The notes under the pieces were generated by a model. That model was not told where the DNA came from. It worked only from the letters and a program-made list of their open reading frames with translations, and searched no databases. 26,463 nucleotides of DNA from Chiloscyllium plagiosum. Its lineage: Eukaryota. The position numbers and the translations under genes are program-made. The DNA lies in NCBI RefSeq assembly GCF_004010195.1, contig NC_057718.1:52242238-52268700 (forward strand), written 5' to 3'. This document shows, piece by piece, positions 644 to 19,854 of this stretch. Position 1 is the first letter of the stretch. Each line of letters opens with the position of its first letter.

Positions 644-1233
644 TCGTCTGTTGTCTTCATAGCGGCAGCTAGTTTCTCCAGTTAGTCAAGGAATGATTAA
701 CAGTTCAGCTATACTCCAATATAAGTTAGAGTGGGATTGTGTCACATTGCAAAAATGGTGAACACTTGCAAGGTGTATTGAGTGTTTATGTTATCAAGGT
801 GGAATGCAGTGACTTGTGCTTTAGAAGTTCAGTTTGAGAATCTATTTCCATAAATATTGCTCCGTGGTATTTAGTTTTCTATCCTTTCATTACTAAAGGA
901 AGTCATCTGCACTAAAACTTCAAACTACCTGGTACACTTAGCTACCTAATGCTGCTGATCTGTGATCTATCGAAAGCTTTAAATCAAATTAGACACAGAC
1001 TTCTGGTATAATTTAAAATACTGTATCCATTAGGAGGATGCACTGATTCAAAGTGATTTGCTAAAAGTAGCAAATGTATTGAGAAAAATATTGTTCAGAC
1101 AGTGAGTGATTCATTTTCAGATTAGAATTTATGAGTACAGTGACAGATCAGGAAAATGTTGAGGGGATTGTGTTATCTGGACTCTTTTTACCATGAGGCA
1201 ATTACATCTCTGAGGATAAAGCCTCAATCTGAT

Positions 1234-1265
1234 CTCCAGCATCTGCAGTCCTCACTTTCTCCTAG
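1234..1265 (+). mobile_element. Isolated Penelope-like element 3' terminus (micro-insertion)
   Basis: ctccagcatctgcagtcctcactttctcctag, the same motif that ends the elements at 1413-1588, 4113-4321 and 18421-18802. Flanked by tcaatctgat (1224-1233) and tcaacctgat (1266-1275), a 9/10 direct repeat. Confidence 0.7.
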
Positions 1266-1412
1266 TCAACCTGATTTGCGCAGTGTTCTGGGAGAGAAGA
1301 GTACAATTACAAGAGAGAGCAGTAAGGAGACTTAGGAGGGAGGAGCGCAGGAACCTCAGTCTTTGCAGCTGTCCAACAGATCGAATTTCTTTCAGCTTGC
1401 TTGGATGACAGT

Positions 1413-1588
1413 TGAAACTTTATTGCTGGAACAGCACAGCAGGTCAGGCAGCATCCAGGGAACAGGAGATTCGACGTTTCGGGCACAGGCCCTTCTTCAG
1501 GAATGCTGGATGCTGCCTGACCTGCTGTGCTGTTCCAGCAATAAAGTTTCAACTTTGATCTCCAGCATCTGCTGACCTCACTTTCTCC
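1413..1588. mobile_element. Palindromic non-autonomous Penelope-derived element
   Basis: Perfect inverted repeat of ~47 bp (1411-1458 vs 1507-1553), PLE terminal motif at 1560-1589, and an 11-bp direct repeat tggatgacagt at 1402-1412 and 1589-1599 (TSD). Confidence 0.85.
1469..1504 (-). ncRNA. Minimal type I hammerhead ribozyme motif
   Basis: Minus strand reads AUUC-CUGAAGA-A-GGGC cugu GCCC-GAA-ACGU-C^-GAAU: stem I AUUC/GAAU, CUGANGA core, 4-bp stem II, GAAA, palindromic ACGU stem III and GUC cleavage triplet. Confidence 0.85.
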
Positions 1589-1887
1589 TGGATGACAGTC
1601 CAGGCTAAGGATCGATGAGATCACTGACCGTGACAATGTGGTACAAGAAGCTATTCAAGTGCAGGGAATAAAATGGAATGTAATGGTAGTTAGGGGTAAT
1701 GTAATGATATGGTCAGAGGTTGTCACAATAAGGAGTGCGAGTTAAGATGTCGGTGTGTCTGTGTTGTGATCCCAGTGCCAGGATATCTGCTTAGGGCTGG
1801 AGAAGAATTTACAGTGACAGTGGAAGGATCTAGTTCATGAATGTCCATGTAGGAACCAGTGACAAGAAAGGAGAGAGAAGGAGGTTC

Positions 1888-4112: not shown

Positions 4113-4321
4113 ACATAGAGGAAGTGAGGATTGCAGATACTGGAGCTCAGAGTCAAGAGTGTAGTGCTGGAAAAGCACAGCAGGTCAGACAACATCCGAG
4201 GAGCAGCAGAATTGATGTTTCTAACATAAGCCCTTCATCAGGGCTTATGCCCAAAACGTCGATTCACCTGCTCCTCGGATGCTGCCTGACCTACTGTACT
4301 GTTCCAGCACTACACTCTCGA
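4113..4321. mobile_element. Palindromic non-autonomous Penelope-derived element (older copy) with degenerate hammerhead halves
   Basis: Long imperfect inverted repeat centred on ataagcccttcatcagggcttat (4226-4248). Reversed PLE terminus at 4117-4146. Flanks caaagataaata (4101-4112) and caaagatatata (4322-4333) match at 11/12. Confidence 0.85.
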
Positions 4322-5409
4322 CAAAGATATATATTGTTACAAAATAAGTATTCCAAGCCTAATTTATGAATGAAGTACTGTCATTTTTAAACACAAACAT
4401 TTTAAAATAATTATTTGTGCATTCCATAAATATCTGCCTTCCATTTACTTTTACCTGTCCTCGTGTTCCTCTATCCTAGTTATCCTAGTAGCTGCAACAT
4501 AGCTACCAAATTTGTAACACTGCAGGGTGCCATGAAGGATGTCCTCAAAAAGACCTAGTTTCAGGCTGCACCACAAAGGGATAGGCACCAGCAGTTTGGG
4601 TTGACAGGTATTAGCAAGACTACCAGAGTTTAATGAGGAATAATATCTTCCATTGATGGTGCAGAATATTTTTGCTCCAGACAGCCACTGCCATTCCCCT
4701 GTGATGGCAAATCAATAGTTCAAATCATGTGTAGGGGTGAAAGGCTTCTAAGAGTAGAGTGATACCCTGCAAATCTAATTGCATGAAGAAATCTACTGTC
4801 ACAAGAGCAGCAAGGTGGCCTTGAATGATGACAGCTTGAGCTTCCAGTGCAGCACCCAGACAATAGGTATTCCTATATGTGCTAGAATGAGTGCTGGAAT
4901 ATCAGCCAACAGATTCTACATCATGTTCAGATCCAGAATTCTGCAAACTGTGTTCACCATCATTATAGCGTTAGGGCATTATAGCGCCCTGAAATAAGCC
5001 CTGAGCCAAGTTTTTCTGGCTCCTTGTTCGTGATATTGACTGTCAGGCTTCTGTAACTCTGATGAATGAGCAAAGGATTTTATTGTGCTTCCTATCAGGT
5101 CTCTTCTGTAGGCTCCTATCATCTACTCCAGCCACAATGCAGCTCATCTTTAAGAGGTGCAGGCAAGCTTGAGGCATTGGTTTGGTAATTGCAAGCTACT
5201 TGTGACATTGACACTGCCCGCCCAGCCCAGTATTCCAGTGGTTCCATGTGGCAGTCTTGTCCTGGTGTCACATTCTCATCAAGGAATGGTGATCTTGTCC
5301 TGGCTGTGTGTTTTGGGTATTCCATCGTTGCTCAATCTGCTCTTTCCCCAACCCAGGAGCTGTAAACTGAACTGTGATGGCATTTGTCTTAATTTTACTC
5401 TTTAAAATG

Positions 5410-9651: not shown

Positions 9652-9782
9652 ATGATTTGGGGATGCCGGTGTTGGATTGGGGTGTACAAAGTTAAAAATC
9701 ACACAACACCAGGTTATAGTCCAACAGGTTTAATTGGAAGCACACGAGCTTTCGGAGTGACGCTCCTTCATCAGGTGGTTGT
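9652..9782 (-). mobile_element. Short hammerhead-bearing retroelement fragment (second PLE-type family)
   Basis: 131-bp insert flanked by cttgcaac (9644-9651) and cttacaac (9783-9790). Contains a hammerhead core at its 5' end; the remaining sequence differs from the 1413/4113 family. Confidence 0.75.
9743..9777 (-). ncRNA. Minimal type I hammerhead ribozyme motif
   Basis: Minus strand reads CAC-CUGAUGA-A-GGAG cguca CUCC-GAA-AGCU-C^-GUG: stem I CAC/GUG, intact core, 4-bp stem II, palindromic AGCU stem III and CUC cleavage triplet. Confidence 0.8.
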
Positions 9783-17380: not shown

Positions 17381-18420
17381 TTTTCTTTTATACTGTCTCT
17401 CCTTGTTCTTTGTTTGGAAATGTACAGATGCAAATAAGAATTCTGAGTTTCTACTGAATTGCATAGTGTGCTGGTAACAGACTACTGTTCAAATGATTGA
17501 GAAAGTTATGATGGAATCAGGGTCCAGAAGCAGTCAGGCAATGGCCCATACCCATGGACAGCAATCCTGAAGACATTGCTATGTTTTATAATAGGTGATT
17601 TTGGAGGTGGAGACTTCCAATGGACATTTCTAGCCTGGTGAAGAATTTGATTTTTTTTTTGCAGGAGAATCTCTGGATTTCAAGGATTCTGTGACATGTG
17701 GGCTGACTGATTCCCGAACTTCAGACATCTGTTGGCACAGTGTCACAGTTTTCTATTGCAGCTGCCCAAGTGATCTAACTGGAGGACTTGTCGAACCTCC
17801 TGGTGTAGCAAGACCTTGAAAAGGAACAAAATGCAACCATGTAGTGCAGGAAACAGATTCATGTGGCAGGGTTATAAGTGACATGAAGCCGCTGGCATAG
17901 TTGAAAACGGGAACAGAAGACTGGATCCTGGAGATGCTGATAAGAAAATGAATGTTGCTGCTGTTGCAAAGTTACTTTGAAATATTTGAGTGATCAGAAT
18001 TAACCATTAAGTGCACTGATAGATCGGATAAAGGAAATACTGGCAGATCCAACAAATTAAGACTACCATGAGAAGACCTAAGAAGATTCTGAAATGGTGA
18101 ACCATTTTACTGAAGAATGCATGCTTAGAACTTGGCTTACCATGATTGTTGCCAGATGAGAATTGGTGTTAAATCTGTCAAGAAAAGAAGTTAGAAATCT
18201 CCTCAAGTGAGATCAGAGTTTGAAGGACAATGGTCTGCACTTCATGAACTCATGGGAGATTCTTTAATGTACCACAAATAGCATTTGGACCAAAGATCCG
18301 CATGTTCCACCTTCTCCAAATCCAGCAGAAACAGTTTTCACTTGAGGGTTGGTGAATCAGAGGAAAAGAGTGGCTCCACCAAGTGGGAAATCTGAATGTC
18401 GCAGGCCAAGTGAATTCAGC

Positions 18421-18802
18421 TAGGAGAAAGTGAGGACTTGCTGGAGAGGGGGTGGGGGCGGAGAGGTTGGGAAGAAGATTGCAGGTCAAGAAGGCGGTGC
18501 TGAGTCCGAGGGTTGGGACTGAGATAAGGTGGGAGGAGGGGAAATGAGAAAGCTGGAGAAATCTGCATTCATCCCTTGTGCTTGGAGGGTTCCTAGGCAG
18601 AAAATGAGGCGCTCTTCCTCCAGGCGTCGTATTGCCATGGTCTGGCGATGGAGGAGGTCAAGGACCAGCATGTCCTTGGCAGAGTGGGAGGGGGAGTTAA
18701 AGTGTTCAGCCACAGGGTGGTTGGGTTGGTTGGTGCGGGTGTCCCAGAGGTGTTCTCTGAAACGTTCCACAAGTCTCCCCAATGTAGAGGCGGCCACATC
18801 GG
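18421..18802 (-). mobile_element. Penelope-like element fragment encoding the GIY-YIG endonuclease C-terminal part
   Basis: Minus ORF RLVERFREHLWDTRTNQPNHPVAEHFNSPSHS...RRLEEERLIFCLGTLQAQGMN contains the R..EH, HF, E and G.N motifs. PLE terminus taggagaaagtgaggac at 18421. 7-bp direct repeat attcagc at 18414-18420 and 18803-18809. Confidence 0.9.
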
Positions 18803-19854
18803 ATTCAGCGCCAATTTTGGACAACGTTTTCACTGGAGCAAGGATCTTGTCCCACAGTGTCTCAGGTGAACTTTCACTGTGGATCTAAGTGCTCTTAAAG
18901 AGTGGATAAGGTTTGTAGAACTGTGAAGCTTGCAAGTTAATAAAATGGCTGGTGCTTTACTAAATAAAAACAAAAAAGGCCTACCGCCATCTATGGGTTA
19001 AAAAAGTCTGTCTAGAACTGTTTGTTATGTAACCCTAAGTGGTACCATAACAATATAAACGCTTGACTGCTTTCAATAACCTATCTTTATCATAATCAGT
19101 CCCTGTAAGGTTGCAATTTGATTGATATCTATAAGTGGTTATTAAACAATTAGTTGTATTTTATGTTAGGTTATGAATAAAATATTTATTTTCAAAGTGA
19201 TAAAGCAATTCAGGGGTTTAAATATATTGAATGAGCTTAGATGAATAATAGCAATTTCGATATAGTAATGTTTCTAAGAGAAGCTTCCATTTTCTTTCGT
19301 TTTAACATCACTCCTGGACACTGTCAATGATAGATACTGGGTCAATCGGCATTGAGATGCAAAGGTGAAAATGGTCCTGAGGACATGGATTGTCATGAGC
19401 TCACAGCAGGTTGGCACAGGAACTAAAAGTGGCAGGAGGATTTGTTGGGGGCATGGATTAGATTGGATGTCGTGTAAAGTCATGGGAATGGGTGCAATGT
19501 AATCGGTGACAATTCCAAGACCTAACCTTTAAGAAAACAATTTGGAAAAGCCCCAGAATAAATGCAAGCCTTCACACTCAGCAGAATTTGACCTTCTCCC
19601 ACTTGTGATCTGGTCAGCAAGCCTGATGTCACTCATCAGTCATCCGCCTCCAACTGGATCAAAGATTCTGACATTCAGTGAACGTTTTTCCTAAGGTGGG
19701 TGAGCAAGCCAGGAAAATTCCCAGCTCCATGCATCCACCCTAGGAACAAAACAAATGTGATTAAAGATCATTGCCTACCTACTGAATGGATTGTCTAGTA
19801 AATTTGTATCTCTTTTGTATCAGTTATTTCAAATAAGTACTCTAGTATCATTAA

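What the first reader, a model, noticed from the sequence alone, without database searches (positions are those of the whole stretch)
1402..1599. Intact hammerhead ribozyme held in the loop of a perfect hairpin mini-element with an 11-bp TSD
Seen: a 176-bp insert with perfect ~47-bp inverted arms, a loop that contains a complete minimal hammerhead (CUGAAGA / GGGC-GCCC / GAAACGUC^) on the - strand, a PLE-type tail on the + strand and an exact 11-bp TSD. Known: Penelope-like elements carry minimal type I hammerheads in their terminal repeats, with a palindromic stem III thought to work as dimers, and they often form inverted ends. Inference: this is a young, non-coding, ribozyme-bearing (retrozyme/MITE-like) unit mobilised in trans, which could cleave or form dsRNA in any host transcript crossing it.
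Basis: partly seen in the sequence, partly recalled or inferred. Interest (0 to 1): 0.75.

Follow-up and report, generated by a model that had tools for sequence, protein, structure and literature searches.

The report
One-off Penelope retrotransposon hairpin stub
This small hairpin with a self-cutting-RNA motif is real, but it is a one-off, stub-sized insertion of a very abundant Penelope-type jumping gene, likely stitched from two short copies started at two fixed points, rather than a mobile mini-element of its own.

Summary
In detail: 49-bp perfect inverted arms, a minimal hammerhead on the minus strand, a 35-nt tail and an exact 11-bp target duplication. The interpretation mostly fails. 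The DNA is two truncated copies of the end repeat (pLTR) of a young Neptune/Nematis-type Penelope-like element, joined head to head. The family has 11,575 exact hammerhead cores in this genome, but this junction occurs once, and 30 sampled hairpins show 26 different junctions. The hammerhead lacks helix III, the known dimer-dependent type, and stands alone here. Two patterns add value. All 44 independent short hairpins carry the tail on exactly one arm. Arm ends pile up at the hammerhead's 5' edge, not at its cut site. Both fit priming of the two target strands at the two start sites shown in vitro for a lizard element, with copying to the RNA's likely 5' end. Other derivatives of this subfamily do replicate as units (a 302-copy hairpin composite, a 40-copy tandem junction), but not this 176-mer. 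The scan has reported such hairpins before, in this and other genomes.

The parts
1402..1412 (+). Left target-site duplication (11 bp; last 3 nt also match the pLTR end)
1410..1505 (-). Tail-less arm: pLTR copy from the 5' edge of the hammerhead (parent position -94) to the pLTR end (+1); 96 of 96 nt identical to parent copy L035
1469..1504 (-). Minimal type I hammerhead: 4-bp stem I, CUGAAGA, extra A, 4-bp stem II, GAAA-CG-UC with no helix III loop; predicted cut between 1473 and 1472
   Evidence: motif type as in PMC4209133
1505..1506 (.). Head-to-head junction (-94 / -47), blunt, unique in the genome
1506..1553 (+). Tailed arm: pLTR copy from position -47 to the pLTR end; starts 14 nt downstream of the predicted cut site; pairs with 1410-1458
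1540..1545 (+). AATAAA 8 nt before the pLTR end (mirror copy at 1424-1419 on the minus strand); likely a working poly(A) signal at some loci
   Evidence: sequence; poly(A) loose ends at the pLTR end in 29 RNA reads laid on L082
1554..1588 (+). [quoted passage not shown]
1589..1599 (+). Right target-site duplication

Best explanation
This is a single, dead-on-arrival insertion of two short copies of a Penelope-like retrotransposon's end repeat joined head to head, likely made when the element's enzyme primed both cut DNA strands at two different start points on its RNA. Shown: both halves are near-exact pieces of the pLTR of an abundant young family whose longer copies encode a CX4CxxC linker and a GIY-YIG nuclease; one half ends at the pLTR end, the other at the tail end; the junction is unique; a target duplication flanks the whole. 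Inferred: the nuclease made an 11-nt staggered cut; one strand primed reverse transcription at the pLTR end and ran 94 nt to the likely 5' end of the RNA (an initiator-like TCATTC at the hammerhead's edge); the other strand primed at the tail end and stopped after about 83 nt; end joining fused the two cDNAs. The hammerhead is a passenger from the pLTR and would need a second sense copy, and probably the element's protein, to cut.
For: Family size: 18,535 exact arm 31-mers and 11,575 exact hammerhead 34-mers; reversed controls 0. This junction: 1 copy. Unselected sample (arm and hammerhead matches on the first 18 Mb of contig C1; 74 loci classed, complex L122 left out): 39 single arms, 30 hairpins, 5 other; 26 junctions among the 30 hairpins; a duplication of 6-17 bp found at 51 of 69. 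One-tail rule: 30 of 30 there (27 with the other arm ending at the pLTR end, 3 cut shorter) and 18 of 18 in a held-out set of 31 loci. Removing 4 copies of one re-mobilised composite leaves 44 of 44, whereas single arms are tailed about half the time (24 of 50). The same junction occurs with the tail on either side (L044, L052, L057 versus L058), which copying from one master would not give. Simple fold-back cannot build this copy: the tail-less arm holds positions -94 to -48, which the tailed arm lacks, and the tail-less arm cannot template a tail. 5' ends: 52 of 70 hammerhead-bearing arms stop at -96 to -86, mode -93; exact counts fall from 11,575 (pattern starting at -90) to 4,466 (-105) and then only to 3,683 (-132). 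Parent: GIY-YIG PF01541, E 8.9e-5, above cutoff, in L202; RVT_1 E 6e-8 in L076; CX4CxxC linker. In vitro precedent: the Anolis PLE protein cuts and extends both strands and starts at two sites that bound the tail; uncleaved RNA is the main template; its hammerhead needs the protein (PMC11167929).
Against: The twin-priming step is inferred from genomic copies only. In vitro the two start sites were used alike on both strands, so the strict one-tail rule is not explained by that paper. No transcription start was mapped: the test for a copied cap G was inconclusive (G before -93 in 6 of 14 arms) and RNA reads showed no pile of starts or ends. No full-length intact ORF of this subfamily was seen; RT and nuclease pieces came from different loci, and the RT piece lies across an assembly gap from the pLTR. 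Some junctions do recur (7 copies; 3 of 30), and some hairpin-bearing composites do replicate (302 copies).
Confidence: 0.8

Rival explanations
1. The 176-mer is a non-autonomous mini-element (retrozyme- or MITE-like) that is transcribed and re-inserted as a fixed hairpin unit by the PLE enzyme.
For: BLAST finds many full-length look-alikes (40 scored of 1,053 candidates). Seven copies share one near-identical junction. Longer hairpin composites of this subfamily are re-mobilised.
Against: This junction is unique. The 7-copy junction sits at a 3-nt microhomology and those copies differ in tail length. 26 junctions in 30 hairpins. Of 70 tail-less ends only 4, all from the long composite, share a flank. 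One hammerhead per strand, no tandem unit.
Confidence: 0.06
2. The hairpin arose from one primed cDNA by fold-back, self-priming on an antisense template, or a template switch, as proposed for head-to-head PLE junctions in a rotifer.
For: PMC3846280 reads palindromes at inverted junctions as self-priming, possibly on an antisense RNA (passage). Many junctions here overlap by 1-3 nt.
Against: Either arm can be the longer one at the junction. In this copy neither arm can be copied from the other. A version with later resection or a second RNA template is not excluded.
Confidence: 0.2
3. The tailed arm was copied from hammerhead-cleaved RNA, so the ribozyme sets the size of such stubs.
For: The tailed arm starts at -47, downstream of the predicted cut at -61.
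Against: Only 6 of 98 arm 5' ends lie at -69 to -55, against 60 of 98 at -100 to -86. The other arm of this copy reads through the cut site. No read ends pile up at the cut (though that library is poorly suited). Hammerhead mutants did not change insertion in vitro (PMC11167929).
Confidence: 0.08

Closest known systems
Inverted-pLTR-plus-tail insertions of EN+ Penelope-like elements (Pen2a_Av, PMC3846280; Fig. 2 of PMC8557442; passages read)
   Same: An inverted 5'-truncated copy abuts the direct copy; a 30-40 bp tail at one end only; duplication of about 9-10 bp.
   Different: Here both copies are shorter than one pLTR, so no ORF is left and the whole insert is a 176-bp hairpin.
Minimal type I hammerheads of metazoan PLE pLTRs (PMC4209133; parts 1-2 of 4 read)
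   Same: [quoted passage not shown]
   Different: Stem II is only 4 bp here; not assayed.
Poseidon element PAc of Anolis (PMC11167929; parts 1-2 of 4 read)
   Same: Two reverse-transcription start sites bound the tail; both strands are extended; the hammerhead is not needed for insertion.
   Different: PAc is of the Penelope/Poseidon clade, while this family has the Neptune/Nematis linker. In the parts read the paper does not describe a one-tail rule or stops at the hammerhead's 5' edge.
Animal non-LTR retrozymes (PMC7229834 passages; bioRxiv 10.64898/2026.07.22.740005 part 1 of 5 and passages)
   Same: Non-coding, type I hammerhead, derived from or moved by PLEs.
   Different: Retrozymes are head-to-tail tandems with a hammerhead in each unit; this is a head-to-head pair with one motif. 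The 224-nt tandem elsewhere in the genome fits that class better.

Membership tests
EN+ Penelope-like element insertion | pLTR continuous with an ORF encoding a C-terminal GIY-YIG nuclease and an RT | tested here: met
   GIY-YIG above cutoff directly upstream of the same pLTR in L202; RVT_1 in L076 across a gap. Met for the family; this copy has no ORF.
EN+ Penelope-like element insertion | 30-40 bp tail at one end, inverted truncated copy, target duplication | tested here: met
   35-nt tail, inverted arm, 11-bp duplication; pattern general in the family
Neptune/Nematis clades | CX2-5CxxC linker before GIY-YIG (PMC8557442) | tested here: met
   C-X4-C-X2-C in L122 and L202 frames
Neptune/Nematis clades | Placement in an RT phylogeny | not tested
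   No full RT of this subfamily was recovered and no reference set was on hand
Minimal PLE hammerhead | Conserved core, stems I and II, no helix III, palindromic 15.2-16.2 | tested here: met
   across fetched loci the stem II loop varies (CTGT, ATGT, TTAT, TAAT, TTTT) while core and stem stay mostly fixed
Minimal PLE hammerhead | Self-cleavage as a dimer | not testable with these tools
   Needs a bench assay; the computed two-strand minimum-energy fold pairs the stems II with each other and not helix III
Non-LTR retrozyme | Head-to-tail tandem with a hammerhead in each unit | tested here: not met
   One motif, head-to-head layout
Non-LTR retrozyme | Circular RNA monomer | not testable with these tools
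   No suitable RNA data
MITE or fixed non-autonomous element | Many copies of the same unit with the same interior | tested here: not met
   1 copy of this junction; 26 junctions in 30 hairpins
mir-15 precursor (Rfam RF00455) | Score at or above the gathering threshold with a short loop | tested here: not met
   49.9 bits against 57.3, both strands alike, 58-nt insert in the loop

The most novel reading that the evidence does not exclude
These thousands of hairpin stubs are a fossil record of the unresolved second-strand step of Penelope transposition: one enzyme complex primes the two target strands at different, fixed sites (one at the tail end, one at the pLTR end, never the same site twice), and both cDNAs run off at a transcription start placed exactly on the first base of hammerhead stem I, so the ribozyme sits at the very 5' end of the template and is usually copied uncut.
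Probability: 0.5. Interest if true: 0.5.

Novelty: new member of a known kind. Interest (0 to 1): 0.22.

Why it matters
As a locus it is ordinary: one of thousands of stubs. The family statistics matter more. The steps after first-strand priming in Penelope-like elements are not yet validated (PMC11167929), and the 44-of-44 one-tail rule plus the sharp stop at position -93 give two concrete predictions for the existing in vitro system. The stubs also seed the genome with perfect 50-90 bp hairpins and AATAAA signals that could affect host transcripts and can be mistaken for microRNA precursors.

Tried and rejected
Rfam scan: no hammerhead family at E<=1; the mir-15 match is below threshold and rejected. 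Cap-G test for a transcription start at -93: inconclusive. Insertion polymorphism: contigs cover the left junction and the right flank in run X1 and the right junction in X5, a second sample and study; no empty-site joint among the 15 joints shown, 88 were not shown, and X6 and X8 had too little cover; inconclusive. Expression of this locus: no RNA holder listed; RNA was laid on L082, not on the window, so this locus was not tested. RNA ends at the cut site or at -93: none piled up in 274 reads of one single-cell poly(A) run, a second run laid 0 reads, and the library is unsuited. Full-length autonomous copy: not found among the loci fetched; many have assembly gaps. Host gene: 9 ORFs of 110 aa or more were listed, only one was scanned (no Pfam match), so genic context is unknown. 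The primary paper on dimer cleavage (PMC5785218) was not held; I saw only its title and a review's summary. Literature searches found no paper describing these shark-type hairpin stubs, and none of the PLE papers listed uses 'twin priming'; most subscription journals are not in the library, and the supplements of the 2026 preprint, which may list cartilaginous-fish families, were not seen.

Full report
What is there. The window lies on contig C9 of G000, a 3.56-Gb animal genome; earlier notes of the scan and my recall of its repeats point to a shark, which I did not test. At 1402-1599 an exact 11-bp duplication flanks a 176-bp insert with perfect 49-bp inverted arms (1410-1458, 1506-1554), a 47-nt loop and a 35-nt extension on the right. 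The strand folds far better than its shuffles (z -12.3). The loop carries a minimal type I hammerhead on the minus strand with a predicted cut between 1473 and 1472; the descriptor gave no hit in 200 shuffled windows. Helix III is only A-C-G-U with no loop, and there is an extra A before stem II. These are the traits Cervera and De la Pena list for PLE hammerheads; their monomer did not cleave and dimers did so weakly (PMC4209133, parts 1-2 of 4). Rfam gave no hammerhead match.

What it belongs to. Exact patterns count 18,535 arm copies and 11,575 hammerhead cores. Longer copies run upstream into a frame with a CX4CxxC linker and a GIY-YIG nuclease (PF01541, E 8.9e-5, above cutoff). Downstream, the tail runs on into an ORF start in 354 copies. 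An RT fragment lies at another locus, across an assembly gap. The linker marks the Neptune and Nematis clades (PMC8557442 passages). Numbering from the pLTR end (0), the left half of the insert is positions -94 to +1 in antisense, 96 of 96 identical to parent copy L035; the right half is -47 to +35 in sense with one mismatch. An inverted truncated copy with a tail at one end is the described PLE layout (PMC3846280 and PMC8557442 passages).

Is the hairpin a replicating unit? The junction occurs once in the genome. The nearest look-alike occurs 7 times, at a 3-nt microhomology and with different tail lengths. I sampled without regard to junction: arm and hammerhead matches on the first 18 Mb of contig C1. 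Of 74 loci classed (three duplicate fetches and complex L122 left out), 39 were single arms, 30 hairpins and 5 other; the 30 hairpins had 26 junctions, and 51 of 69 had a 6-17 bp duplication. One junction appears with the tail on either side. Of 70 tail-less ends, only 4 share a flank. So short hairpins are made anew at each site.

Against that reading, some derivatives do replicate. Long-armed hairpins at L037, L049, L177, L178, L184, L185, L187, L188 and L191 share a captured flank (389 bp identical in several) on the tail-less side and differ on the other; that junction has 302 exact copies. A 224-nt head-to-tail unit with one hammerhead each shares a junction in 40 copies.

How it likely formed. 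Every hairpin had the tail on exactly one arm: 30 of 30 in the first set (27 with the other arm ending at the pLTR end, 3 cut shorter) and 18 of 18 among 31 held-out loci (2 had no anchor match). Removing the 4 composite copies leaves 44 of 44, while single arms are tailed in 24 of 50. Among 13 long pairs picked, 10 followed the rule, 1 (a composite copy) did not and 2 were complex. Assembly bias is a poor explanation, since a no-tail/no-tail hairpin is no more palindromic than those seen. Arm 5' ends pile up at the first base of stem I: 52 of 70 hammerhead-bearing arms stop at -96 to -86, mode -93. Exact counts drop from 11,575 to 4,466 between patterns starting at -90 and -105, then only to 3,683 at -132 (the patterns differ in their 3' extent). 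Only 6 of 98 arm ends lie near the cut site. Position -93 is the A of TCATTC, which resembles an initiator (recalled consensus); D. virilis Penelope has a promoter with an initiator in this region (PMC2377424 passages). In vitro, the Anolis PLE protein cuts and extends both strands, starts at two sites that bound the tail, and uses uncleaved RNA (PMC11167929, parts 1-2 of 4). I infer that one target strand primed at the pLTR end and ran to the RNA's 5' end, the other primed at the tail end and stopped at -47, and the two cDNAs were joined. Simple fold-back cannot give this copy, because neither arm contains all of the other. The start site and the twin priming are inferred, not shown: the cap-G test was inconclusive, and RNA reads showed no pile-up of starts or ends.

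Effect on the host. A transcript across the locus would form a 49-bp stem on either strand. Cleavage would need a second sense motif in trans and is unlikely. In RNA laid on parent copy L082, 29 reads of one run carry poly(A) just past the pLTR end, a hint that the AATAAA works at some locus. Whether this locus is transcribed or polymorphic is open; the right junction is present in a second sample.

Earlier notes and verdict. I wrote my reading before the look-up. There 149 notes in at least 15 genomes hold the search words, and the eight shown reach much the same verdict; they are unchecked and not independent support. They gave me the lead to PMC3846280. The finding is real, a new member of a known kind, of low interest as a locus. 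The one-tail rule and the stop at -93 are the parts worth testing.

Noticed in passing
G000 C1 loci L037, L049, L177, L178, L184, L185, L187, L188, L191, L193-L200: A re-mobilised composite: a captured non-PLE stretch (389 bp or more, identical between copies) followed by a long-armed hairpin of this subfamily; 302 exact junction copies; 5' truncation points and tail-side flanks differ. Origin of the captured DNA not identified.
   Followed up: partly
L069-L072, L135-L140, L143-L152: A 224-nt head-to-tail unit (hammerhead, arm, tail, ORF start) with one shared junction in 40 exact copies at about 38 loci; a 320-nt unit with another junction recurs in L068, L082, L135, L136, L139. Candidate PLE-derived retrozyme-like units whose hammerheads could dimerise in cis.
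   Followed up: partly
L082:1562 (pLTR end): 29 RNA reads of one run carry a poly(A) run just past the pLTR end, a few bases beyond AATAAA; locus and number of molecules unknown.
   Followed up: no
window 4118-4322: An older hairpin of a sister subfamily, arms 83% complementary, tail on the left only, junction inside a decayed hammerhead.
   Followed up: partly
window 1226-1265: A lone older tail fragment, 94% like 1556-1589, 140 bp upstream of the finding.
   Followed up: no
window 9741-9779, minus strand: A second minimal hammerhead of a different family (stem II GGAG/CTCC, GC at 15.2-16.2), found by the descriptor.
   Followed up: no
window 18416-18884, minus strand: A decayed PLE nuclease C-terminal fragment similar by eye to the family's frame, ending in a tail-like stretch; no Pfam match.
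   Followed up: partly
window 1402-1407 and 1507-1512: The first 6 nt of the target duplication equal the start of the tailed arm; not seen by eye in the closest look-alike loci, so possibly chance.
   Followed up: partly
window 1416-1548: The hairpin scores 49.9 bits on the mir-15 model on both strands, below threshold; such stubs could be mis-annotated as microRNA precursors.
   Followed up: yes
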